From assembly GCF_024223415.1 (NCBI RefSeq), contig NZ_CP100500.1: a stretch of 64,000 nt of DNA; one strand, written 5' to 3'. Below are positions 42,797-58,981 of the stretch, in pieces. The DNA is from Escherichia coli. GTDB taxonomy: Bacteria > Pseudomonadota > Gammaproteobacteria > Enterobacterales > Enterobacteriaceae. How positions within the stretch are numbered: position 1 is the stretch's first letter; every line of letters starts with the position of its first letter. The notes under the pieces were generated by a model. The model was not told the DNA's origin, ran no database searches, and saw only the letters and a program-made list of their open reading frames with translations. The translations under genes were made by a program, and so were the position numbers.

Positions 42797-42873
42797 TGGA
42801 CCGCCACCGGGGACTCGAACCTCGCACACTCAACTTAAAGGGTTGACGCTCTTTCCTGATGAGCTAGTGGCGG
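42797..42873 (-). tRNA. tRNA-like gene with non-canonical anticodon loop CCUUUAA (by analogy to Stx-phage argN/argO position)
   Basis: Cloverleaf with 7-bp acceptor, GCTC/GAGC D-stem, TTCGAGT T-loop, CCA encoded; C33 and one T-stem mismatch. Confidence 0.55.
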
Positions 42874-42874
42874 T

Positions 42875-42950
42875 TGGTGGCCCTTGCTGGATTTGAACCA
42901 GCGACCTGGCGATTATGAGTCGCTCGCTCTCACCACTGAGCTAAAGGGCC
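42875..42950 (-). tRNA. tRNA with CAU anticodon (ileX/ileZ-like tRNA-Ile2 or Met)
   Basis: GGCCCTTTAGCTCAGTGGTGAGAGCGAGCGACTCATAATCGCCAGGTCGCTGGTTCAAATCCAGCAAGGGCCACCA folds as canonical cloverleaf. Confidence 0.8.
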
Positions 42951-43160: not shown

Positions 43161-43856
43161 TCAATCTACTTTTGCAACACTTTGCTTTGAAAATGCCGCC
43201 TTTTGTTTTGAACGTGTTCTCATTACAAACAATAAAGCCTCACTATCCAGTCGGTGAAAAATGTGTTTCATTGCAACCCAGTGACGAGTAAATGTTTTGG
43301 ACCAGTTTTTAGTTGTCACTCCCGCCAGTAATGCCAGCTCCTGGTATTCATAACTTTCCCCACCAAAAAGTTCTGCTTTTACTGCCTGCGCCGCCAGCCA
43401 GATTAATTTTTTCAGGCGTTCCTGCGTTTTCCCTGCAATTTTTCTGGTACCTGATTGAGTATTAAATTCATTCCACGCCCACTGTGTTATCGCGATCTGA
43501 TATTCCCAACAAATACTCCCGCTGTAACTCCACAACAACCAGGCTTTATGATGTTCTTCAAGAGACAGAACAGCCCGCCGCCACGATGATGTCGAAAACT
43601 CAACCGGGCTGACCAGGGCAATTGATGAGCCTTTCGCCAGTGATTGTTTTCCCGGGATTGGTGGATTATCCCGCGTTATCATTTTTCCAGTCACTTCATC
43701 GCGGTACCGGATTTTTTTACGCCTGTAACGCCCTGTATCAAACATGGCATTCTCCTGCCAGGCCTCAAGCTGCCCTTTTGTTGATCCACTCAAATCGGCG
43801 GTGGCAATCATGAGTTGCTGACGAACAAACTGTAAATACTGGTTATTCATGCGCAC
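43161..43856 (-). CDS. Putative late-gene antiterminator Q (QuuQ/YdfT-like)
   Basis: 231 aa; sits downstream of rusA and DUF968 gene and upstream of tR' and lysis genes, as QuuQ in Qin prophage. Confidence 0.55.
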   Translation of the reverse strand: MRMNNQYLQFVRQQLMIATADLSGSTKGQLEAWQENAMFDTGRYRRKKIRYRDEVTGKMITRDNPPIPGKQSLAKGSSIALVSPVEFSTSSWRRAVLSLEEHHKAWLLWSYSGSICWEYQIAITQWAWNEFNTQSGTRKIAGKTQERLKKLIWLAAQAVKAELFGGESYEYQELALLAGVTTKNWSKTFTRHWVAMKHIFHRLDSEALLFVMRTRSKQKAAFSKQSVAKVD

Positions 43857-46270: not shown

Positions 46271-46426
46271 TTACTCCTCAGGTTCGTAAGCTGTGAAGAC
46301 AGCGACCTCCGTCTGGCCGGTTCGGATTCGTACCTCGCAGAGGTCTTTCCTCGTTACCAGTGCCGTCACAATGACGGTAATACAGATGACGATCAGGGCG
46401 ACTAACATCGCCTTTTGCTGCTTCAT
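46271..46426 (-). CDS. hok: Hok/Gef family type I toxin
   Basis: 51 aa MKQQKAMLVALIVICITVIVTALVTRKDLCEVRIRTGQTEVAVFTAYEPEE, nearly identical to remembered HokD/RelF. Confidence 0.88.
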   Translation of the reverse strand: MKQQKAMLVALIVICITVIVTALVTRKDLCEVRIRTGQTEVAVFTAYEPEE

Positions 46427-46717
46427 AGCCTGCTTCTCCTTGCCTTTCGGCACGTAAGAGGCTAACCTAGATTTGCCGTTCATAGATTGAGCCTCAGATT
46501 AATGTTAAGCGTCTTGCCGGACGCGTAATGTTAACTGGGGCTTTTCTCTATCTGCCTTTTGGGGTTCATGCCTGAGACAGATAGCCTCAAGCACCCGCTG
46601 CAATTCTACTTAACTCTCCTTTTCCCGCAAACCATTTTTATCCCCAGCGGCAAATCGAATACACCACCAGCGCCACCGCCATCGCAATTCCTACCGTTGT
46701 GAATGCTTCAGGCCAGG

Positions 46718-51581: not shown

Positions 51582-51633
51582 TACCCACAGGTAAACAAAA
51601 GTCAATACCCTTGGGTTGTTTACCTTGCGGTAA
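51582..51633. promoter_or_regulatory. Right operator region: three TACC(C)-N-(G)GGTA-type half-palindromic sites between cro-like and repressor genes
   Basis: TACCCACAGGTA, TACCCTTGGGTT, TTACCTTGCGGTAA. Confidence 0.55.
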
Positions 51634-51652: not shown

Positions 51653-52072
51653 ATGGACAAATATGAATTTAGACGACAACAACTCATCAAAATTCGTGAT
51701 GAGAAATGCGATGGTAAAGCGGTTAACGTGGCCAGAAAGATCGGTCGCGAGCCTTCTTATGTATCAAGAATGTTGTACCCAGAGGGGAAAAAAGGAAAAA
51801 AACGGATCGCTGATGATATGGTGGAGATTATAGAAGAGTCCTTTGGGTTACCCCGGGGATGGATGGATGGTATCGTTTCATCATCAACGAACACAGCCTC
51901 CAATTATGAAACAAGGGTTCTAACGCCACGACAACGTATTTTTTTAGATCTCTTAGACGAACTGCCTGAAAGTGAAGCGGATAACTTATTAAAAACTCTT
52001 GAAGAGAAAAAACAGTATTACAATATGATCTACGAAGAAATCCGTAAAAAGAAAGCACAAAACGCATCATAA
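51653..52072 (+). CDS. CI-like prophage repressor (HTH, no obvious peptidase domain)
   Basis: ATG at 51653 gives about 139 aa; HTH ..AVNVARKIGREPSYVSRML..; divergent from cro-like gene. Confidence 0.7.
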   Translation: MDKYEFRRQQLIKIRDEKCDGKAVNVARKIGREPSYVSRMLYPEGKKGKKRIADDMVEIIEESFGLPRGWMDGIVSSSTNTASNYETRVLTPRQRIFLDLLDELPESEADNLLKTLEEKKQYYNMIYEEIRKKKAQNAS

Positions 52073-52115
52073 CTCACCAAACAACCAGTCACCAGTTAAG
52101 ATACATCAAAAAAAT

Positions 52116-52152
52116 TACCCATGGGTATTTACTTCTTGGATACCCATGGGTA
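52116..52152. promoter_or_regulatory. Left operator: two identical perfect 12-bp palindromes TACCCATGGGTA, 25 bp centre to centre
   Basis: Sites at 52116-52127 and 52141-52152, same arms as the right operator sites. Confidence 0.65.
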
Positions 52153-52474
52153 TCCTTTCTTTCATACCAACCCACCCCGCCCCACAGAACGCAGGGCAAT
52201 ACTTCGAGTTACCAGGCAGTGGTCAGGGGTTAAGTAGCCAGCCCGAGGCGTATGAACATGACGGCAGGGTTTAACTTTAACTATGCAGCAGGTTTTTGTT
52301 CCGCTACCCCGGCGTTAAGGGGAAACAGAGGATTTCTCAGTGGGCGAAGTCAAACATCAGAATGGAAGGCATCCCGGGATCGGCAAAGAAGCAGCAATGG
52401 CGCTTTATATTGACATCAGCGCCATTGCCGGACAGGTAAGAATTATCAGAGCGGTAACTAAGCGGTATGTGCCT

Positions 52475-52675
52475 TTACTTCAGAAAGGCTCCGGTGATTA
52501 CACCGAAGATATTGTCAACGATTTCCTCATCGAATTGCGAGGACTCATCTTCAGTTACAAGGTGACCACAATTTTTGCAGATGGCTCCCGCGAAACTGTC
52601 AGAGCCCTGCGGCTTAAAGGATGTGTCGAAGACTTCGCCACCACATTCTGGGCAAGAAAACTTGATTGTATTCAT
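52475..52675 (-). CDS. Small zinc-ribbon protein (CPECGG..CKNCGH), reverse-oriented within leftward early leader
   Basis: ATG at 52675 preceded by AGAGGAAA RBS; 66 aa with two CxxC pairs. Confidence 0.55.
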   Translation of the reverse strand: MNTIKFSCPECGGEVFDTSFKPQGSDSFAGAICKNCGHLVTEDESSQFDEEIVDNIFGVITGAFLK

Positions 52676-53292
52676 AACCAATTTCCTCTCGGGTAACAGA
52701 CCCCTCAGAGGATACCACCTCGCCTGACGTGGTTAAAAGCAGGCACACAACACGAAAGCGCACGGCGAGGTAGCTGGTTCATATATAGCCTGTCGTTAAA
52801 TTTTCGTCGACCGTGCGCTTCCGGTTGTGGCACTCCGCGAAATGGCGCGGCGGTAAGCATGGCGGGGTTCCCTTCCCCTTGAGGACACCGGGTTGTCAGG
52901 TTGACCATGCGCCTGAGTGACAACCCCGCTGCAACGCCCTCTGTTATCAATTTTCTGGTGACGTTTGGCGGTATCAGTTTTACTCCGTGACTGCTCTGCC
53001 GCCCTTTTTAAAGTGAATTTTGTGATGTGGTGAATGCGGCTCAGCGCACGCGGAACAGTTAAAACCAAAAACAGAGTTATGGGTGGATTCTCTGTATCCG
53101 GCGTTAATTGTTAACTGGTTAACGTCACCTGGAGGCACCTGGCACCGCATCAACAAAGTTCACTTCGGTGATGAAAGGTAAGAGAAAATGTTGAATGTAG
53201 CTATTGAAAACCAGTACGGGTGGAATTATAGTGCACCTGCACCTCATAAAACGGGTGCCGGGCGTGGAAACCCGAAAGTTACTCGAGCGCAT

Positions 53293-53316
53293 AACCGCGC
53301 CGAAGCGGTTTTTTTA
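53293..53316 (+). terminator. Intrinsic terminator in leftward early leader (tL-like)
   Basis: AACCGC-GCCGAA-GCGGTT followed by T7. Confidence 0.6.
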
Positions 53317-53484
53317 TGCGTAATGCACAGCCACATTCAGATAATGGTGGGGCGTGCAGGGCAGCTGCAAGGCTGGCCGGGTTCTCGAGTGACCGGTATT
53401 TCCACCCCTGTACGTCTCGCCACCCTTATGGTCGTGGAAAGCCTCGGTGGTGAGTTAATTAACTTAACACTTGAGGATGCCATC

Positions 53485-54036
53485 ATGGCTACTACCCTTA
53501 CCCTTTCTCACCCTGACGTAACCATTGAAAATGGTCGCGCTGTCACTACGTCTATTGCGATCGCAGAATTCTTCGGCAAGCAGCATCACCATGTTGTTCA
53601 AAAAATAGAGGCCCTCGAATGTTCTGAACGCTTTTTAACCAGCAACTTTTCGCGGGTTAAATTCGAGCACCGTGGCAATACCTACAATGCCTACCAAATC
53701 ACCAAAAACGGCTTCGTTTTCCTGGTGATGGGCTTCACGGGCAAAAAGGCCGCTGCATTCAAGGAAGCCTACATTGCCGAGTTCGACCGCATGGAGGAAG
53801 AACTGCGCCGGAATAACACCACACCCGCTGACAAAATAATCCCGGGTGATGGCCGCACCCTGGTTATCCGCTTCGACGAACACGGCTACATCAAATTCAC
53901 CGAAACCGTTCCTGATGGCGCACTGGTCTGTACTCTGGATACTTTCCGTTTTTATCTGGAAAAGCAGGGATGGACTCTCATAAACCGGGGCGCAATTAAA
54001 AATATGACCGTCGAGCAGTTGCTGAGTATTAAATAG
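53485..54036 (+). CDS. Rha family phage regulatory protein
   Basis: ATG at 53485 with GAGGA RBS; ..TTSIAIAEFFGKQHHHVVQKIEAL.. Rha motif; ORF track start 53188 is an upstream extension across the terminator. Confidence 0.72.
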   Translation: MATTLTLSHPDVTIENGRAVTTSIAIAEFFGKQHHHVVQKIEALECSERFLTSNFSRVKFEHRGNTYNAYQITKNGFVFLVMGFTGKKAAAFKEAYIAEFDRMEEELRRNNTTPADKIIPGDGRTLVIRFDEHGYIKFTETVPDGALVCTLDTFRFYLEKQGWTLINRGAIKNMTVEQLLSIK

Positions 54037-54081
54037 TTTTCTGGAATTTCCTTCATATCACAAATTATTAAGGAGATTATT

Positions 54082-54303
54082 ATGATTGCTCATCACTTCG
54101 GAACCGATGAAATACCACGCCAGTGCGTCACTCCCGGCGATTACGTTATTTACGAAGGCCGGACATATGTTGCATCGGCAAACAATATCGAAAAGCAAAA
54201 ACTTTATATCCGTGATTTCACTACAAAAACATGCATTACTGACCGCATGATTAAAGTCTTCCTCGATCGTGATGGTTTACCTGTAAAGGCGGAGGCATGG
54301 TGA
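54082..54303 (+). CDS. Hypothetical protein preceding the exonuclease gene
   Basis: 73 aa ORF with AGGAG RBS. Confidence 0.5.
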
Positions 54304-54422
54304 GCTGTAATAAATAACTGACCCAATACGACATTCAGCTTAATAAATACATAAGGGTCGATTCTTATATGCCAGCAATGGCAGGGATTCGCACAACCTT
54401 AAAACAGCAATGAGGTTTATCA

Positions 54423-56876
54423 ATGAGCACTGATAAAGAAACTTTTGCGCTATATTGCGAAGCTAAAAATGACAAAGTCAGAAAACGCCTTGGGATTAAA
54501 GGTGGTTTTTACTGGACTACAGCAAAAAAATTATCTGTTGCCATCTCCCGCTGCATTACCGCAATGGATGATAACGATTATGATGAAGACGACTTTAAAA
54601 AACCTGTTCGCGTCCATTTGCCCGTTGTTGATGACCTTCCACCGGAAGGCGTGTTTGATACCGAATTCTGTAACCGGTATGAAAAAGGCGGCGAAGATGG
54701 CATCACAATGATATTTATCGCGCCTCCGCCATCCGCGCAGGACAAACCAGCCAGCACTGACAACACCAATGTTAATGGCGAAGACATGACTGAGATTGAG
54801 GAGAATATGCTTCTGCCGGTTTCAGGTCAGATTCTGCCTGTTCGCTGGCTGGCGCAACACGGCGGCGAAAAACCAGTAACGCACGTTTCGCGGGATGAAC
54901 TGCGCTCATTACATAACGCACAGGAAGAAAAACTTCCCGCCGTTACCGCGCTGGCCATCTCAAATAAAGCAGCGCAACTCGAACCGCTGGAGATTCGGGA
55001 TTTGTACAAACTGGTGCGGGACACTGACAAAGTTTTTCCCGCCCCCGTAAATTCAGACCTGGGACTGATGACCTCCTTCATCGAAGCATACCTAGACGCT
55101 GACTACACTGATCGTGGTCTGCTTACAAAAGAGTGGATGAAAGGAAATCGTGTTTCTCGCATCAGTCGCACACCATCCGGCGCTAACGCTGGCGGCGGTA
55201 TTCTTACCGATCGCGGCGAAGGTTTTGTGCATGATAATGCGTCAATGGCATTCGATGTTGCTACAGGAAAACTGGCTCGTTCGATGGATGTGGATATTTA
55301 CAACATGCATCCTTCACATACCAGACGTGTTAACGAAATTATCGCAGAAAATGATCCCTGTTTCTCCGTCTTCCTTAAGGCTTTTCTGAACATGCCAGGC
55401 GGGATGGATTATTCCCGCGCCATCGTGGTTGCCTCCGTGAAAGAAGCACCGGTTGGTATAGAGGCTATGCCCCACCGCGTCACCGAATACCTGAATAAAG
55501 TGCTGACCGAAACCGATCATGCCAACCCTGATCCGGAAATCGTGGATATTGCCTGCGGTCGTTCCTCTGCCCCAATGCCGCAGCGTGTAACAGAAGAAGG
55601 AAAACAGGATGATGAAGAAAAACCGCAACCGTCTGGCGCAATGGCAGATGAACAGCCAACGACTGAAACAGTGGAACCGGATACAACTGAACATCATCCG
55701 GACACGCAGCCGCTGGATGCTCAGCCGCAGGTGAATTCTGTTGATGCGAAATATCAGAAACTGCGGGCAGAACTCCATGAATCCCGGAAAAACATTCCGC
55801 CCCAAAATCCTGTCGACGAAGACAAGTTGCTGGCAACCTCTGGCGGAGAATTTGCTGAAGGGATTAGCGACCCGAATGATCCGAAATGGGTGAAGGGGAT
55901 TGAAACCCGCGATTCTGTGAACCAGAATCAGCAAGAAACGGAACAGAACGACCAGAAAGCGGAACAAAACAGCCCAAATGTGCAACGAAAAGAGCCAAAA
56001 GCGAAACAATCCGAACCAGTAGCGCAACAGGAACCGGAAAAAGTCTGCACCGTCTGCGGTCAGAGCGGTGTCGACAACTGTCCTGATTGTGGCGTGGTGA
56101 TGGGCGACGCAACATACCAGGAAATGTTCGATGAAGAGAATCAGCCTGAAGTTCAGGAAAATGATCCAGAGGAAATGGAAGGCTCTGCGCATCAGAACAA
56201 GGAGAACTCTGGCGGCAATCAGCATCATGCCAGCGATAGTGAAACTGGCGAGACGGCAAATCCCTTAATTAAGATAACCAGTCATCACAAATATAAGTCC
56301 ACAAGCAAAACGTGGTATCACCTGATGATCGACCTTGAAACAATGGGAACCAACACCAATGCACCCATAGTAGTTATTGGTGCGGTTTTCTTCGACCCGG
56401 AAACAGGGGAAATCGGGCCGGTATTTTATATCGTTATCAGCCTGACTGACGCAATGAATACAGGGGCTGTTCCTGATGGTGGCACCATCGAATGGTGGCT
56501 GAAGCAGTCCAGCGAAGCCAGAGCTGCCATTTTAACTGACCAGGTAAAAATGAAAGATGCCCTTTTGCGTTTTCGGGAATTCGTCAATGAACACTCTGAT
56601 GAAAAATTCGTTCAGGTGTGGGGTAATGGCGCAACGTTCGATAACGCAATTTTGCGCACCTCATACGAACGTCTGGACATCCCCTGTCCGTGGCATTACA
56701 GCAACGATCGTGATGTACGCACAATCGTTGAGATGGGGAAAATCACAGACTTCAATGCCAGAAGCGTAATTCCATTCGAAGGCGTGCGCCATAATGCTCT
56801 GGATGACGCTCTTCACCAGGCAAAATACGTAACAGCCGCTATACAAAAACTGATCCCGAATCAGGCTGATTTTTAA
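54423..56876 (+). CDS. RecE-like N-terminal region fused to a C-terminal DEDDh-type 3'-5' exonuclease domain
   Basis: 817 aa; ..[45 protein letters not shown].. matches remembered RecE N-terminal region; C-terminus has [26 protein letters not shown] motifs. Confidence 0.72.
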
Positions 56877-56940
56877 TGTTCAACCCCGGTCGTCGCCCAC
56901 CGGCTATAGTGGCGGCGACCATGATTAGCGAACGACGCTC

Positions 56941-57189
56941 ATGGCAAGACTTATTCTGCTCACTGAGTGGGCAAAAGAGGAATTCAGTGAACCGGTCCCT
57001 ACTCCGGGTACGTTAAGTAAATACGCTAAAGCCGGAATGATATTTCCTCTCCCCAAAAAAGTAGGAAGGCACTGGCGAGTGGATCCACGCGCTCGCTTTG
57101 TCGGAATGGTAAACAAGCCGGAGGTGATCGCCACAGATCACCCTGCTTTGAAGAGGATACTGGAAGATGGCGCGCCCGCGAAAATATAA
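56941..57189 (+). CDS. xis: Excisionase-like protein
   Basis: 82 aa basic protein overlapping int start. Confidence 0.65.
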   Translation: MARLILLTEWAKEEFSEPVPTPGTLSKYAKAGMIFPLPKKVGRHWRVDPRARFVGMVNKPEVIATDHPALKRILEDGAPAKI

Positions 57190-58297
57190 AACCGATGTTC
57201 CGGGTTTATCTCCGTATTTTGACAAAAGAAATAACAAAGTTTACTGGCGTTACAGGCATCCCATCACAGGTAAAAATCATGGACTCGGCAGTATTGACCA
57301 GAAACTGGCGGAAACCATTGCAGCAGAAGCGAACAGCCGTCTTGCCAGACAACAAATGGAGCAAATTCTCAGTCTGCAGGAGAAAATTATTAGTGATACC
57401 GGCGGCGCATCAACCGTTTCCATTTTTCTGAATAATTACAGAAAAATTCAACAGGAAAGATATGAGAACGGAGAGATCAAACTCAGCACGCTGAAGCAAA
57501 AAGCGGCTCCTCTCAGGGTGTTTGATGAACGTTTTGGAGCCAGGCCGCTAGATGCCATAACCGTAAAAGATGTGGTATCGGTGCTGGAAGAATACAAGGC
57601 AAAGGGACATAACAGAATGGGACAAATTTTCAGGAAGGTATTGATCGATGTTTTCCGGGAGGCTCAACAAACGGGTGATGTTCCGCCAGGCTTTAACCCG
57701 GCTGAATCGGCAAAAAAACCGCAAGTGCGGATATCAAGACAGCGACTGACTTTTGATGAGTGGATGATGATTTATAACGCAGCGGAAAAGGATGGTTACT
57801 TTTTACAGCGCGGCATGCTGCTGGCACTGATGACGGGCCAGCGTCTTTCGGATATTTGCAAAATGCAGTTTTCGGATATCCGGGATGGTTACCTTCATGT
57901 CGAACAGCAAAAAACAGGAGCCCGGATAGCCATTCCTCTGGCTCTGCGTTGCGACAAATTAAATCTTACCCTGGGTGACGTGGTGTCATCCTGTCGTGAT
58001 TACATCCTTAGTCCGTGGTTATTGCACCATCATCACGCTAAGGGGATGGGTAAGCGCGGCGGGATGGTTAAACCAGCAACATTAACAGTCGCATTTAAAA
58101 AAGCCCGGGATTCTGTGGATTACAACTGGCGTGCTAATGGCACGCCACCCTCTTTCCATGAGCAAAGATCTTTATCAGAACGATTGTTCAGAGAACAGGG
58201 AATTGATACCAAAATTTTGCTGGGCCATTCGAATCAAAAAATGACCGATATTTACAACGACGCACGCGGTAAAGAGTGGAAAAAACTGGTTATTTGA
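57167..58297 (+). CDS. int: Tyrosine-type site-specific integrase
   Basis: 376 aa; adjacent to prophage end at ompW 3' end. Confidence 0.88.
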   Translation: MARPRKYKTDVPGLSPYFDKRNNKVYWRYRHPITGKNHGLGSIDQKLAETIAAEANSRLARQQMEQILSLQEKIISDTGGASTVSIFLNNYRKIQQERYENGEIKLSTLKQKAAPLRVFDERFGARPLDAITVKDVVSVLEEYKAKGHNRMGQIFRKVLIDVFREAQQTGDVPPGFNPAESAKKPQVRISRQRLTFDEWMMIYNAAEKDGYFLQRGMLLALMTGQRLSDICKMQFSDIRDGYLHVEQQKTGARIAIPLALRCDKLNLTLGDVVSSCRDYILSPWLLHHHHAKGMGKRGGMVKPATLTVAFKKARDSVDYNWRANGTPPSFHEQRSLSERLFREQGIDTKILLGHSNQKMTDIYNDARGKEWKKLVI

Positions 58298-58310
58298 TAA
58301 CCAGTTTTGC
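58283..58310 (+). terminator. Hairpin AACTGGTTA-TTTGA-TAACCAGTT plus TTTT overlapping int stop
   Basis: 9-bp inverted repeat then T-run. Confidence 0.5.
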
Positions 58311-58340
58311 AGAAGAGTTTTGCAGAGGTTTTGCAGAGAA
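58306..58340. repeat. Three tandem copies of GTTTTGCAGA(R) between int stop and ompW stop
   Basis: AGTTTTGCAGAAG AGTTTTGCAGAG GTTTTGCAGAG. Confidence 0.6.
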
Positions 58341-58342
58341 AA

Positions 58343-58981
58343 TTAGAAGCGGTATCCGGCAGAGAACATAAACACCCACGGATCCAGTCGTACCGCGTCT
58401 TTCACGGGGGTTCCATTAAATTTATAGCTGGCGGTGGTGTCGATATCCATGTACCACACTGACATATTAACCAACCAGTCACGGTTAATCAGATAATCAA
58501 CCCCCACCTGCCCGGCAGCTCCCCAGGAATCTTTCAGACTGAGATCGGAAAGCCCCGCCTCTTTGCCATGATCGTTAAATCCATTATCAAAGAAGGTGGT
58601 GTAGTTAATACCTGCCCCAACATAAGGACGGAATTTGCTGCTGGCATCACCAAAATACCACTGCGCCATCAGTGTTGGCGGCAGATGATGAACGGTTGCA
58701 ATATCGCCGGTCGCCCGGGTGCCGATTTTATGGCGGAACGGCGTCGCTGCCAGTAATTCCACACCAATGTTGTCGGTCGCCATATAAGTAAACGTCAGGC
58801 CCAGTTGAGTGTTATTGGTCACGCTGAATCCACCCAGACTTCCTAACGTACCACCAGCACCTTCTGTAGGACGTACGGTTGCAGAACCTGCACGCATAAA
58901 AAATTCTCCTGCTTCATGCGCAAAGGCACTGCCAGAGAGAAGTGTTGTTACTGCCAAAGCCGCCACTGTTAACTTTTTCAT
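58343..58981 (-). CDS. ompW: Outer membrane protein W
   Basis: 212 aa; MKKLTVAALAVTTLLSGSAFA signal; ends ..FSAGYRF. Confidence 0.93.
   Translation of the reverse strand: MKKLTVAALAVTTLLSGSAFAHEAGEFFMRAGSATVRPTEGAGGTLGSLGGFSVTNNTQLGLTFTYMATDNIGVELLAATPFRHKIGTRATGDIATVHHLPPTLMAQWYFGDASSKFRPYVGAGINYTTFFDNGFNDHGKEAGLSDLSLKDSWGAAGQVGVDYLINRDWLVNMSVWYMDIDTTASYKFNGTPVKDAVRLDPWVFMFSAGYRF

What the first reader, a model, noticed from the sequence alone, without database searches (positions are those of the whole stretch)
52100..53484. Leftward early region lacks an N-like gene: 1.3-kb leader with operator palindromes, a reverse-oriented zinc-ribbon gene and an intrinsic terminator before Rha
Downstream of the repressor gene and the two perfect TACCCATGGGTA operators, where lambda has nutL and N, there is no plausible N ORF. 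Instead there is a 66-aa CxxC...CxxC zinc-ribbon gene on the opposite strand with a strong RBS, then about 800 bp of structured non-coding sequence ending in a strong terminator (53293-53316) some 170 bp before Rha. Expression of Rha, the exonuclease, xis and int must either bypass this terminator (put-like RNA-mediated antitermination as in HK022, or another mechanism) or start from a downstream promoter. The zinc-ribbon gene sits at the classic cI-proximal exclusion-gene position (rexAB, sieB).
Basis: partly seen in the sequence, partly recalled or inferred. Interest (0 to 1): 0.62.

Follow-up and report, generated by a model that had tools for sequence, protein, structure and literature searches.

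The report
Known phage sRNAs fill N-less leader
The supposed 1.3-kb non-coding leader of this E. coli prophage is a mosaic of known parts (a DicF small RNA and a phage-P4-type IsrK/C4 antisense-RNA switch lying inside a long reading frame fused to Rha), so it is largely ordinary, though it suggests how an operon without an N protein gets past its terminator.

Summary
The raw observations hold: two exact TACCCATGGGTA operators, no N-like gene, a conserved 66-aa zinc-ribbon ORF on the minus strand, and a terminator at 53293-53316.

The "800 bp of structured non-coding sequence" does not hold. It contains three Rfam families above their gathering scores:
- DicF (52953-53004), inside a block 94.7% identical to the K-12 Qin dicBF operon.
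- IsrK (53239-53315), which has its own promoter and owns the terminator.
- C4 antisense RNA (53340-53427).

The C4 loops pair with targets upstream and downstream, and the downstream target covers the Rha Shine-Dalgarno sequence. These pairings co-vary across 28 sequence clusters.

The whole IsrK-C4 module lies inside a 282-aa ORF (53188-54036) in frame with Rha. That frame is stop-free in 93 of 95 distinct homologous loci. Its layout matches phage P4 eta/kil, where translating the long ORF from an upstream promoter prevents termination.

The likely bypass is therefore ribosome-mediated, not put-like; this step is inferred, not shown. The leader itself is less structured than shuffled controls.

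A conserved plus-strand ORF also overlaps the zinc-ribbon gene, and it is not N-like.

Verdict: a new member of known kinds, of modest interest.

The parts
51653..52072 (+). Prophage repressor gene (139 aa; no peptidase S24 domain)
   Evidence: phrog_5736 transcriptional regulator, E 4.7e-70. Weak match to the DicA C-terminus, 24 bits. No Pfam hit. PGAP calls the same CDS in strain TUM1886.
52116..52152 (.). Two exact 12-bp palindromic operators, TACCCATGGGTA, at 52116-52127 and 52141-52152
   Evidence: Related sites at 51582, 51606 and 51621 lie in the divergent promoter region. Together the two copies also score as a 16-bp hairpin with a T-rich tail.
52128..52156 (+). Inferred pL/dicBp-type promoter: -35 TTTACT 52128-52133, 17-nt spacer, -10 TATCCT 52151-52156, TSS about 52163-52164
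   Evidence: Read from the sequence. It matches only 8 of 12 positions, below the scanner's threshold. Support: operator 2 overlaps the spacer and -10, and homology to the leaders of phages Evi, Tritos and strain AR_0085, which have other immunity regions, begins at 52164-52170. This is an inference.
52164..52325 (+). Conserved 5' leader of the early-left operon
   Evidence: 95-99% identical in Evi, Tritos and AR_0085. Not unusually structured, z = +1.79. The last 28 nt (52298-52325) are shared with K-12 Qin just upstream of ydfA.
52397..52696 (+). Conserved plus-strand ORF co-oriented with the operon (99 aa from ATG 52397; 118 aa from GTG 52340). It occupies the slot held by ydfA-ydfB-ydfC in Qin, Tritos and AR_0085
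   Evidence: phrog_21318, E 2e-61. It is intact, with SD and ATG, in all 8 homologues down to 55-60% aa identity, and the homology block starts at its ATG. AF2 mean pLDDT is 68.7. No Pfam hit, no fold match, and it is not N-like.
52475..52675 (-). 66-aa zinc-ribbon gene (ECs_2282 family), embedded antisense in the plus-strand ORF
   Evidence: NF047912, 57 bits against a cutoff of 37. Citrobacter, Klebsiella and Enterobacter homologues keep exactly 66 aa (one cluster representative, P0010, is called 99 aa from an upstream start), and all four Cys are invariant. dN/dS is 0.19-0.35, against 0.29-0.73 for the antisense frame. AF2 mean pLDDT is only 57.
52735..53162 (+). Segment homologous to the Qin dicBF operon, from downstream of ydfC to the dicB 5' UTR. 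It includes a long hairpin at about 52745-52835
   Evidence: 94.7% identical to K-12 MG1655. The fold of 52697-53015 has z = -2.31. The 190-nt DicF precursor described in bioRxiv 10.1101/2023.04.14.536235 would start near 52815, inside that hairpin (inference).
52953..53009 (+). DicF sRNA (52953-53004) with its terminator U-run (53005-53009)
   Evidence: Rfam RF00039, 76.7 bits against a gathering score of 48, full length 52/52.
53188..54036 (+). Long 'Ash-Rha' ORF (282 aa). It starts 51 nt upstream of the IsrK start, before its promoter, and runs through IsrK, its terminator and C4 into Rha
   Evidence: ORF list. Pfam Phage_ASH at residues 14-108 plus Phage_pRha at 120-204. PGAP calls about 280 aa in near-identical genomes. 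The same frame is stop-free in 93 of 95 distinct loci, and an ATG lies upstream of the -35 box in 92 of 95. Resampling null: 39% expected stop-free, 20 of 21 observed. Homologous in layout to P4 eta.
53204..53232 (+). IsrK promoter (TTGAAA, 17 nt, TATAGT)
   Evidence: 10 of 12 matches, the best in the region. It ends 7 nt before the Rfam IsrK 5' end. A promoter-like pair sits at the same place in all 28 clusters.
53239..53315 (+). IsrK / seqA-type sRNA. Target a1 GUGGAAA is at 53264-53270, target b1 UUACUCGAG at 53279-53287, and the intrinsic terminator at 53293-53315
   Evidence: Rfam RF01394, 67.2 bits against 50. The c4-a1b1 model gives a sub-threshold hit at 53226-53278. Terminator.
53340..53427 (+). 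C4 / CI-type antisense RNA. Loop b' is at 53381-53392 and junction a' at 53398-53405
   Evidence: Rfam RF01695, 73.8 bits against 45. The MFE fold equals the family consensus.
53434..53487 (+). Downstream C4 targets and the short start: a2 GUGGAAA 53434-53440; b2 CACUUGAGGAU 53468-53478, covering SD GAGGA 53473-53477; short Rha start ATG 53485
   Evidence: Duplex predictions. Self versus non-self pairing energies across 28 clusters are -9.6 to -15.0 against -3.1 to -6.2 kcal/mol. The N-terminus MATTLTLSHP matches P4 Kil MATTLTPSHP. TIGR02681 Rha family, 88.7 bits.
54082..54303 (+). kil (FtsZ inhibitor), the first gene after the IsrK-C4-Rha cassette
   Evidence: NF008465, 151 bits against a cutoff of 92. 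In phage Evi this gene directly follows the dicF segment, so 53166-54071 is an inserted cassette.

Best explanation
WHAT IT IS (high confidence). The interval is the start of the early-left operon of a lambdoid prophage integrated at ompW. The operon is of the Qin dicBF type and has no N. It is a mosaic of four parts:
1. Repressor-controlled promoter and operators, followed by a conserved, weakly structured leader.
2. An exchangeable first-gene cassette. Here it is a plus-strand ORF with a zinc-ribbon ORF embedded antisense; relatives carry ydfABC instead.
3. The Qin-like segment that yields DicF by processing and termination.
4. An inserted P4/P1-type immunity cassette, in this order: long-ORF start, IsrK promoter, IsrK (targets a1 and b1 plus terminator), C4 antisense RNA, targets a2 and b2, short Rha start.

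HOW IT MOST LIKELY WORKS (inferred from P4 and Gifsy-1, not shown here).
- In the lysogen the internal promoter makes mostly terminated IsrK. Read-through transcripts yield C4. The C4 loops pair with a2 and b2 and hide the Rha Shine-Dalgarno sequence, so the Rha-family protein, probably an antirepressor, is not made.
- When the pL-type promoter fires, ribosomes start at ATG 53188 and translate the stop-free 'Ash' frame through the IsrK terminator hairpin and through C4.
- This prevents both terminator formation and C4 control. Transcription then continues into Rha, kil, the exonuclease gene, xis and int without any N or put factor.
For: - Rfam places DicF, IsrK and C4 above their gathering scores.
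- The flanks of DicF are 94.7% identical to Qin.
- The mosaic junctions are mapped against Evi, Tritos, TUM1886 and AR_0085.
- A promoter-like site with 10 of 12 matches ends 7 nt before IsrK +1.
- Pairings a'/a1/a2 and b'/b1/b2 co-vary in 28 clusters, and self pairing is best or tied in 23-26 of 28. Target b2 covers the SD.
- Frame 0 is stop-free in 93 of 95 distinct IMG/VR and phage loci, while the other two frames carry 0-9 stops.
- An in-frame ATG lies upstream of the -35 box in 92 of 95 loci.
- In-frame indels of 3 nt and 6 nt separate 20 of the 28 clusters (lengths 240, 243 and 246 nt).
- The column-resampling null predicts 0.91 stops per sequence in frame 0, against 0.05 observed. Frames 1 and 2 match the null.
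- In 61 of 93 loci an upstream same-strand ORF abuts the long-ORF ATG.
- In P4 the same frame is Eta (MMMPALQ...) and its nested end is the 65-aa Kil, whose N-terminus matches the Rha start here.
- PMC10111431 states that CI lies inside eta, that the Rfam C4 and isrK models detect CI and seqA, and that Eta translation from the upstream promoter prevents termination.
- PMC4825925 shows IsrK terminator read-through and translational control of the downstream antirepressor in Gifsy-1.
Against: - No transcript or translation data exist for this locus.
- Variation in the 'Ash' part shows no third-codon-position excess (0.84, 0.87, 0.87, against 1.04, 0.93, 1.33 in Rha). The frame is kept open but its amino acids are not conserved as such. 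An RNA-driven absence of stops cannot be fully excluded, because 39% of resampled sequences are also stop-free.
- In Gifsy-1, the experimentally studied relative, the long frame is broken and a separate orf45 is used. The P4 layout is therefore not universal.
[quoted passage not shown] From memory of Forti 1999 (not readable here), that site is Rho-dependent (timm), not the IsrK-type hairpin.
- The DicF terminator upstream of ATG 53188 is not covered by this mechanism.
- The SD of ATG 53188 (aaggtaagag) is only moderate.
Confidence: 0.6

Rival explanations
1. Plain leaky termination. The DicF and IsrK terminators each stop only a fraction of polymerases, and that read-through is enough to express Rha, kil, exo, xis and int. 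The open frame over IsrK-C4 is then a by-product of RNA-level sequence conservation and GC content.
For: In Gifsy-1 a portion of IsrK transcripts reads through the terminator without any added factor, and no long ORF exists there (PMC4825925). dicB is expressed downstream of the DicF terminator in Qin (bioRxiv 10.1101/2023.04.14.536235). 39% of column-resampled sequences are stop-free in frame 0. There is no codon periodicity in the Ash part.
Against: 93 of 95 loci are stop-free, against the expected 39%, while the other frames fit the null. Indels keep the frame. An ATG lies upstream of the promoter in 92 of 95 loci, often abutting an upstream gene. In the P88-type subgroup the frame stays open even though the short start is in another frame. 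P4 genetics are summarised in PMC10111431.
Confidence: 0.25
2. One reading: an RNA-based (put-like) or still unrecognised protein antiterminator encoded in the leader modifies RNA polymerase so that it ignores the terminators.
For: No N is present, yet at least two intrinsic terminators lie in the operon. The leader 52164-52325 is conserved across phages with different immunity regions. The plus-strand ORF has no known function.
Against: The leader folds worse than shuffled sequence, z = +1.79. No boxA is present. Rfam finds nothing there. The plus-strand ORF has no arginine-rich N-terminus and no N, Nun or Q profile hit. It is replaced by ydfABC in relatives that keep the same downstream terminators, so it cannot be a general antiterminator.
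Confidence: 0.05
3. The genes downstream of the terminator are expressed from their own promoters, not from the pL-type promoter: the IsrK promoter for Rha, and others for kil, exo, xis and int.
For: A strong promoter-like site precedes IsrK. In Gifsy-1 the isrK promoter drives anrP transcription (PMC4825925). The cassette 53166-54071 is self-contained and is absent from Evi.
Against: Promoter-like sites in 54000-58500 number 5, no more than shuffled sequence gives (6.1 +/- 2.1), and none is well placed. Gene spacing and orientation are those of one operon. The IsrK promoter still has to pass its own terminator.
Confidence: 0.12

Closest known systems
Satellite phage P4 immunity region (PLE, seqA, cI RNA, seqC, nested genes eta and kil)
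   Same: - Same order of elements: long-ORF start, internal promoter, IsrK/seqA-type RNA with hairpin and U-run, C4/CI RNA, downstream target at the SD of a nested in-frame short gene.
- The short gene starts MATTLT.SHP in both.
- The Pfam Phage_ASH domain covers the RNA region.
- PMC10111431 describes Eta translation as preventing termination.
   Different: - Here the nested gene is a full Rha-domain protein of 183 aa, not the 65-aa Kil.
- The module sits in the pL-type operon of a lambdoid prophage, downstream of DicF, not in a satellite.
- The IsrK-to-C4 spacer is 24 nt here against 107 nt in P4.
- Which terminator is bypassed is untested here. From memory of Forti 1999, the P4 site is the Rho-dependent timm.
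Salmonella Gifsy-1 isrK-orf45-anrP-isrJ locus (Hershko-Shalev 2016, PMC4825925)
   Same: IsrK with its own promoter and terminator, a C4-like element (STnc1160) downstream, and a Rha/antirepressor-type gene after it. Both RNAs pass the Rfam thresholds. Read-through and RNA-controlled translation of the antirepressor are shown experimentally there.
   Different: - In Gifsy-1 the long frame is interrupted. A separate 45-codon ORF starts at the AUG at the C4 5' end and ends in AUGA at anrP.
- Here that AUG (53344) is in frame with an uninterrupted ORF from 53188 into Rha.
- Gifsy-1 carries the module next to antQ in the late region, not in the early-left operon.
Phage P1/P7 immI (c4 antisense RNA, icd, ant)
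   Same: An antisense RNA processed from the same transcript as its targets, two loop-target pairs (a, b) upstream and downstream, and the downstream b target covering the ribosome-binding site ahead of an antirepressor gene. The P1 details are from memory (Citron and Schuster 1990). The pairings were tested here.
   Different: The downstream gene here is Rha-family, with no icd. Whether P1 has an equivalent long ORF was not examined.
E. coli K-12 Qin dicBF operon (dicA/dicC, dicBp, ydfABC, dicF, dicB, ydfDE)
   Same: A repressor without a cleavage domain, a pL-like promoter, DicF with flanks 94.7% identical, and the same position in the operon. [quoted passage not shown]
   Different: ydfABC is replaced by the plus-strand ORF and zinc-ribbon cassette. 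dicB-ydfD is replaced by the IsrK-C4-Rha cassette. The operators and most of the leader differ. Unlike Qin, this prophage still has kil, exo, xis and int.
Lambda pL-nutL-N and HK022 putL
   Same: Only the position: directly downstream of the repressor-controlled leftward promoter, ahead of recombination and integration genes, with terminators to pass.
   Different: There is no N-like ORF, no boxA, and no structured put-like RNA in the leader.

Membership tests
DicF RNA (Rfam RF00039) | Covariance-model score at or above the gathering threshold, full length | tested here: met
   76.7 bits against 48, model positions 1-52 of 52, at 52953-53004.
DicF RNA (Rfam RF00039) | Lies in a dicBF-type operon between the ydfC region and the dicB 5' UTR, ending in a stem-loop plus U-run | tested here: met
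   52735-53162 is 94.7% identical to K-12 Qin. The stem is followed by TTTTT at 53005-53009.
DicF RNA (Rfam RF00039) | [quoted passage not shown] | not testable with these tools
   Needs northern blots or RNA-seq. Only a long hairpin at the expected RNase III position was seen.
C4 / CI antisense immunity RNA (Rfam RF01695; P1 c4, P4 cI) | Covariance-model score at or above the gathering threshold | tested here: met
   73.8 bits against 45, positions 1-87 of 87, at 53340-53427.
C4 / CI antisense immunity RNA (Rfam RF01695; P1 c4, P4 cI) | Two single-stranded segments complementary to one target pair upstream and one downstream on the same transcript | tested here: met
   a' pairs with a1 and a2, and b' with b1 and b2. 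Across 28 clusters, self dG is -9.6, -9.7, -12.7 and -15.0, against non-self -3.5, -3.1, -4.0 and -6.2 kcal/mol.
C4 / CI antisense immunity RNA (Rfam RF01695; P1 c4, P4 cI) | The downstream target overlaps the ribosome-binding site of the controlled gene | tested here: met
   b2 at 53468-53478 contains SD GAGGA at 53473-53477, 7 nt before ATG 53485.
C4 / CI antisense immunity RNA (Rfam RF01695; P1 c4, P4 cI) | A stable RNA processed from the read-through transcript that represses in trans | not testable with these tools
   Experimental. Shown for P4 and P1, and for STnc1160 in Gifsy-1 (PMC10111431, PMC4825925).
IsrK / seqA-type sRNA (Rfam RF01394) | Covariance-model score at or above the gathering threshold, own promoter, Rho-independent terminator | tested here: met
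   67.2 bits against 50. TTGAAA-17-TATAGT ends 7 nt upstream, and the terminator is at 53293-53315. Promoter activity itself is not tested.
Gifsy-1 isrK-orf45-anrP layout | A separate small ORF (orf45) translationally coupled by a stop/start overlap to the antirepressor gene | tested here: not met
   In the window the corresponding frame has no stop before Rha. Gifsy-1 has the stop at +242 overlapping the AUG at +241.
P4 eta/kil nested-gene architecture | A long ORF that starts upstream of the internal constitutive promoter and spans seqA-CI-seqC, with a short gene nested in the same frame starting at the RNA-targeted SD | tested here: met
   ORF 53188-54036 and ATG 53485. P4 Eta and Kil were recovered in the same frame relative to IsrK +1, and the N-termini match. 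Pfam Phage_ASH matches.
P4 eta/kil nested-gene architecture | The frame is maintained open in relatives | tested here: met
   93 of 95 loci are stop-free. The resampling null gives 39%, and frames 1 and 2 fit the null.
P4 eta/kil nested-gene architecture | Translation of the long ORF from the upstream promoter prevents termination and escapes RNA immunity | not testable with these tools
   Needs nonsense-mutant and suppressor experiments. The P4 result is cited through PMC10111431; the original paper (PMC94026) is not held.
Lambda N / nut antitermination | An N-like protein encoded as the first gene of the pL operon | tested here: not met
   No NCBIfam or PHROG N hit for the seven plus-strand ORF translations tested in 52100-53484 (38-118 aa), and no Pfam hit for the 118-aa ORF.
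Lambda N / nut antitermination | A nut site (boxA plus boxB hairpin) in the leader | tested here: not met
   No boxA within 1 mismatch of the 8-mer or 3 mismatches of the 12-mer in 52100-53484. boxB was not searched separately. The leader is weakly structured.
HK022 put RNA | A stable two-stem-loop RNA just downstream of the promoter | tested here: not met
   52164-52339 folds at -42 kcal/mol, against a shuffle mean of -49.7 (z = +1.79). A direct comparison with HK022 putL was not done.
cI-proximal exclusion genes (rexAB, sieB) or known defence systems | Sequence membership of a known exclusion or defence family | tested here: not met
   PADLOC best hit E = 0.0015 (PDC-M14A), not significant. 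No rex or sieB hit in NCBIfam or PHROGs. The position and opposite orientation fit a moron, but the function is untested.

The most novel reading that the evidence does not exclude
In this very common class of N-less lambdoid prophages, the early-left operon gets past an sRNA terminator and an antisense-RNA block by translating a stop-free 'Ash' leader frame whose amino acids are not themselves constrained. That would be ribosome-mediated antitermination, known only from satellite P4, acting in place of N. The same frame would also give long and short Rha isoforms from two promoters. In addition, the first cassette of the operon may be a true antisense-overlapping gene pair, with the zinc-ribbon gene lying inside the plus-strand ORF.
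Probability: 0.4. Interest if true: 0.5.

Novelty: new member of a known kind. Interest (0 to 1): 0.3.

Why it matters
- **A puzzle turned into a map.** What looked like an unexplained leader is now an annotated set of parts. Prophages at ompW occur in about 44% of complete E. coli genomes (bioRxiv 10.1101/2020.11.04.367953). In this one, the early-left operon carries three regulatory RNAs (DicF, IsrK, C4) that the genome annotations examined here leave out (only phage Tritos marks DicF) or translate as protein. PGAP and phage annotators call a 280-aa Rha protein, and Pfam's Phage_ASH domain corresponds to the RNA module.
- **A concrete, cheap test.** Placing a nonsense codon in the long ORF would show how an N-less lambdoid operon reads through its terminators, extending the P4 eta mechanism to ordinary prophages.
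- **A known phenomenon made visible.** The survey shows that the a and b specificity loops of these immunity RNAs vary and recombine independently across prophages. This makes the known kind of diversity easy to see.

Tried and rejected
- **N-like protein.** NCBIfam and PHROGs were run on the seven plus-strand ORF translations tested in the interval (38-118 aa), and Pfam on the 118-aa ORF. Nothing N-, Nun- or Q-like was found. A Q-like antiterminator exists elsewhere, at 43164-43856 on the minus strand.
- **boxA.** None found.
- **put-like leader.** The fold z-score is positive, so this was rejected. HK022 putL itself was not fetched.
- **Zinc-ribbon function.** PADLOC gave nothing significant. 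No paper mentions ECs_2282. The AF2 model is poor, pLDDT 57, so no fold search was run on it.
- **Plus-strand ORF function.** AF2 pLDDT is 68.7. Foldseek against PDB and BFVD gave no hit below E = 0.07. Pfam gave nothing.
- **Which strand of 52397-52696 is coding.** dN/dS favours the zinc-ribbon frame in 5 of 6 pairs. However, the non-overlapping N-terminus of the plus-strand ORF shows a weak plus-frame third-position excess and a conserved SD and ATG. This is left unresolved; both may be real.
- **Codon periodicity in the Ash region.** It is absent, so I do not claim a conserved protein domain, only a frame kept open.
- **Forti 1999 (PMC94026).** The paper could not be read.
- **Promoters downstream of Rha.** No more than chance.
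- **A dicB link.** The similarity between the dicB and Rha start contexts (EDAIM) is only 11 of 15 nt and was dropped.
Full report
**Context.** The window's right part is a lambdoid prophage. On the plus strand it reads: repressor (51653-52072), the interval in question, Rha, kil, an 817-aa exonuclease, xis and int (57167-58297). Replication genes, a CII-like gene (YdaT family) and a Cro-like gene lie divergently on the minus strand. A near-identical copy (99%) in E. coli TUM1886 is followed by ompW. This makes it a member of the 'PPompW' prophages, reported in 44% of complete E. coli genomes (bioRxiv 10.1101/2020.11.04.367953). A Q-like late antiterminator is present at 43164-43856 on the minus strand (phrog_304, E 8e-107).

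**Check of the observation.**
- The two exact TACCCATGGGTA palindromes are at 52116-52127 and 52141-52152. The only other matches with up to 2 mismatches in 64 kb (51582, 51606) lie in the divergent promoter region on the other side of the repressor gene. They are convincing operators.
- The 66-aa CPEC...CKNC ORF on the minus strand (52475-52675) has the RBS GAGAGGAAA.
- The hairpin plus T7 run at 53293-53315 is real.
- None of the seven plus-strand ORF translations tested in the interval (38-118 aa) matches an N, Nun or Q profile in NCBIfam or PHROGs, the 118-aa ORF has no Pfam hit, and there is no boxA.
- The description of about 800 bp of structured non-coding sequence, and of a terminator lying in untranslated RNA 170 bp before Rha, is not correct.

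**What the 'non-coding' stretch contains.** Rfam finds three families above their gathering scores, all on the plus strand:
- DicF at 52953-53004 (76.7 bits against 48).
- IsrK at 53239-53315 (67.2 against 50).
- C4 antisense RNA at 53340-53427 (73.8 against 45).

The best promoter-like site of the region (TTGAAA, 17 nt, TATAGT, 53204-53232; 10 of 12 matches) ends 7 nt before the IsrK 5' end.

**Mosaic structure.** Comparison with phages Evi and Tritos, strains TUM1886 and AR_0085, and K-12 Qin gives sharp junctions.
- **52164-52325** is a leader shared by phages with different immunity regions. Homology begins where a weak promoter would start transcription (-35 TTTACT 52128-52133, -10 TATCCT 52151-52156, overlapped by operator 2). 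This promoter is my inference.
- **52326-52734** is an exchangeable cassette. Relatives carry ydfA-ydfB-ydfC here.
- **52735-53162** is 94.7% identical to Qin, from downstream of ydfC through dicF to the dicB 5' UTR.
- **53166-54071** is a cassette that replaces dicB-ydfD (Tritos, Qin), is absent in Evi, or precedes dicB (L137).

The operon is therefore a Qin-type dicBF operon. [quoted passage not shown] The region 52697-53015 is significantly structured (z = -2.31). It contains a long hairpin at about 52745-52835, where the 190-nt DicF precursor would begin (inference). The conserved leader is less structured than 196 of 200 shuffles (z = +1.79), which argues against a put-like element.

**The IsrK-C4 module is a P1/P4-type immunity switch.**
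- In the window, the C4 junction AUUUCCAC (53398-53405) is complementary to GUGGAAA at 53264-53270 (a1, in IsrK) and at 53434-53440 (a2).
- The C4 loop GUUCUCGAGUGA (53381-53392) is complementary to UUACUCGAG at 53279-53287 (b1) and to CACUUGAGGAU at 53468-53478 (b2).
- Target b2 contains the Shine-Dalgarno GAGGA, 7 nt before ATG 53485.
- I retrieved loci by a 20-nt IsrK motif from IMG/VR, without reference to any ORF, and added phage loci. This gave 95 distinct sequences in 28 clusters at under 88% identity.
- Loop and target sequences differ widely between clusters but match within each. Mean self duplex energies are -9.6 (a'/a1), -9.7 (a'/a2), -12.7 (b'/b1) and -15.0 (b'/b2) kcal/mol, against -3.1 to -6.2 for non-self. 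Self pairing is best or tied in 23-26 of 28.

This meets the defining feature of the C4/CI family and places the regulated start at ATG 53485.

**The module lies inside a reading frame.**
- ORF 53188-54036 (282 aa) starts 51 nt upstream of the IsrK start, before the -35 box. It runs through IsrK, its terminator and C4, in frame with ATG 53485.
- Pfam reports Phage_ASH on residues 14-108, which is exactly the RNA module, and Phage_pRha on residues 120-204. Several PHROG families and PGAP also translate the module.
- In 93 of 95 distinct loci this frame has no stop between IsrK +1 and the short start, while the other frames carry 0-9 stops.
- In 92 of 95 loci an in-frame ATG lies upstream of the -35 box. 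In 61 of 93 an upstream same-strand ORF abuts it, often as ATGA.
- The distance from IsrK +1 to the short ATG is 240, 243 or 246 nt in 20 of 28 clusters. In the P88-like subgroup it is 251-257 nt, which puts the short ATG in another frame, yet frame 0 still stays open.
- A null model that resamples alignment columns predicts 0.91 stops per sequence in frame 0, with 39% stop-free. The observed values are 0.05 stops and 20 of 21 stop-free. Frames 1 and 2 match the null (2.6 and 4.2 expected, 2.8 and 4.5 observed).
- Variation shows no third-position excess in this part (0.84, 0.87, 0.87), unlike the Rha domain (1.04, 0.93, 1.33).

The frame therefore appears to be kept open, but its amino acids are not conserved as such.

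**Relation to P4 and Gifsy-1.**
- In P4, Rfam finds IsrK and C4 in the immunity region. The same frame relative to IsrK +1 is a 197-199-aa ORF starting MMMPALQ, upstream of the internal promoter. Its last 65 aa begin MATTLTPSHPEF. These are Eta and Kil. The Rha protein here begins MATTLTLSHPDV.
- PMC10111431 states the following. CI lies within eta. The Rfam C4 and isrK models detect CI and seqA relatives. The transcript from the internal promoter is terminated and processed into CI. Kil is a truncated form translated on read-through. Full-length Eta is translated only from the upstream late promoter, coupled to the upstream gene. Eta translation prevents termination.
- The original paper (Forti et al. 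1999) was not available.
- In Gifsy-1 the long frame is broken. orf45 runs from the AUG at the C4 5' end (+107) to a stop overlapping the anrP AUG (+241/+242). This matches the published numbering (PMC4825925). That paper shows terminator read-through, translational silencing of the long transcript, and activation by short IsrK.
- The window has the P4 layout, not the Gifsy-1 layout.

**Mechanism proposed.** The identities and pairings are shown. The dynamics are inferred.
- In the lysogen, the IsrK promoter gives terminated IsrK plus some read-through that yields C4. C4 masks the Rha SD.
- On derepression, transcripts from about 52164 pass DicF, where read-through is partial as in Qin.
- Ribosomes then load at ATG 53188 and translate across the IsrK hairpin and C4. 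This suppresses both the terminator and the antisense control, so Rha (in a long form), kil, exo, xis and int are expressed.
- That a closely following ribosome prevents hairpin formation at an intrinsic terminator is established knowledge from attenuation systems (from memory).
- The repressor has no S24 peptidase domain. This fits induction through an antirepressor such as a Rha-family protein, as shown for AnrP in Gifsy-1 and for Rem with DicA. That step is an inference.

**The first cassette.**
- The zinc-ribbon ORF belongs to NCBIfam NF047912. Its homologues at 56-65% identity in Citrobacter, Klebsiella and Enterobacter keep exactly 66 aa (one cluster representative is called 99 aa from an upstream start), and all four Cys are invariant.
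- In three different prophage contexts it points against the surrounding early operon.
- The opposite strand is not empty. A plus-strand ORF (99 aa from ATG 52397; phrog_21318) is intact in all 8 homologues, with a good SD, and the block of homology begins at its ATG.
- dN/dS favours the zinc-ribbon frame (0.19-0.35 against 0.29-0.73). The non-overlapping N-terminus of the plus-strand ORF shows a weak excess at its own third positions ([15, 9, 19]), and this reverses in the overlap ([37, 15, 29]).
- AF2 gives pLDDT 57 for the zinc ribbon and 68.7 for the plus-strand ORF. There are no fold, Pfam or PADLOC matches.
- I cannot decide between one gene and an antisense gene pair. Neither ORF is N-like.

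**Verdict.** The finding is real as a set of sequence features, but its puzzle is mostly resolved by known families. It is a new member of known kinds (Qin dicBF combined with P4-type IsrK/C4/Ash-Rha). The remaining open point is modest and testable: whether translation of the long frame is what carries the operon past the terminator.

Noticed in passing
window 52340-52700, both strands; L132-L139: The 66-aa zinc-ribbon ORF (minus strand) is wholly embedded antisense in a conserved 93-118-aa ORF (plus strand). Both keep their SD, start and length in all 8 homologues. Annotators disagree: PGAP calls the zinc ribbon, the Evi record calls the plus-strand ORF. This may be a true antisense-overlapping gene pair.
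   Followed up: partly
28 clusters of IsrK-C4 loci (L005-L130), aligned: The a and b specificity loops assort independently. For example, the a type UUGGCGU occurs with about ten different b types. This suggests combinatorial immunity specificities produced by recombination within the module.
   Followed up: partly
L010, L082, L090, L097, L105, L053, L071 (P88-like subgroup): The SD-preceded short start after b2 is out of frame (frame 2) with the long ORF, yet frame 0 stays open for more than 500 nt. The long and short products would therefore be different proteins.
   Followed up: no
window 52116-52162: The two operator palindromes together form a 16-bp hairpin followed by a T-rich tail, 44 nt after the repressor stop codon. 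The scanner scores it as terminator-like. It could double as the terminator of the repressor transcript.
   Followed up: no
window 52298-52325: A 28-nt motif, GTTCCGCTACCCCGGCGTTAAGGGGAAA (a CCCC...GGGG hairpin), lies just before the first gene's RBS. It is the only part of the leader shared with K-12 Qin, and it sits exactly at the cassette junction.
   Followed up: no
L003 (E. coli TUM1886), relative to window 52768-52837: A 70-nt deletion in an otherwise 99%-identical prophage removes one arm of the long hairpin upstream of DicF, the presumed RNase III site.
   Followed up: no
window 53016-53157 and 53083-53181: The dicF-dicB spacer gives a sub-threshold STnc100 hit (32.5 bits against 47). 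PGAP annotates a short 'DicB, missing C-terminus' pseudogene here in near-identical genomes. The matching frame is open upstream of dicB in K-12 (VDSLYPALIVNWLTSPGG...).
   Followed up: partly
window 46421-46596 (-): A sok antitoxin RNA (Rfam RF01794, 112 bits) indicates a hok/sok-type toxin-antitoxin locus inside the prophage.
   Followed up: no
window 42800-42950 (-): Two tRNA genes lie directly downstream of the Q-like antiterminator gene (43164-43856, minus strand).
   Followed up: no
L137 (metagenome contig): A relative carries a HigB/HigA-like pair between the repressor and the plus-strand ORF. It has both the Ash-Rha gene and dicB-ydfD in series, which shows that the cassettes are added as well as swapped.
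   Followed up: no
Pfam PF10554 (Phage_ASH) and PHROGs 995, 821, 6928, 3960, 29966: These protein families match the translated IsrK-C4 RNA module (window residues 1-108 of the long ORF). Their conservation probably reflects RNA constraints rather than a folded protein domain.
   Followed up: partly
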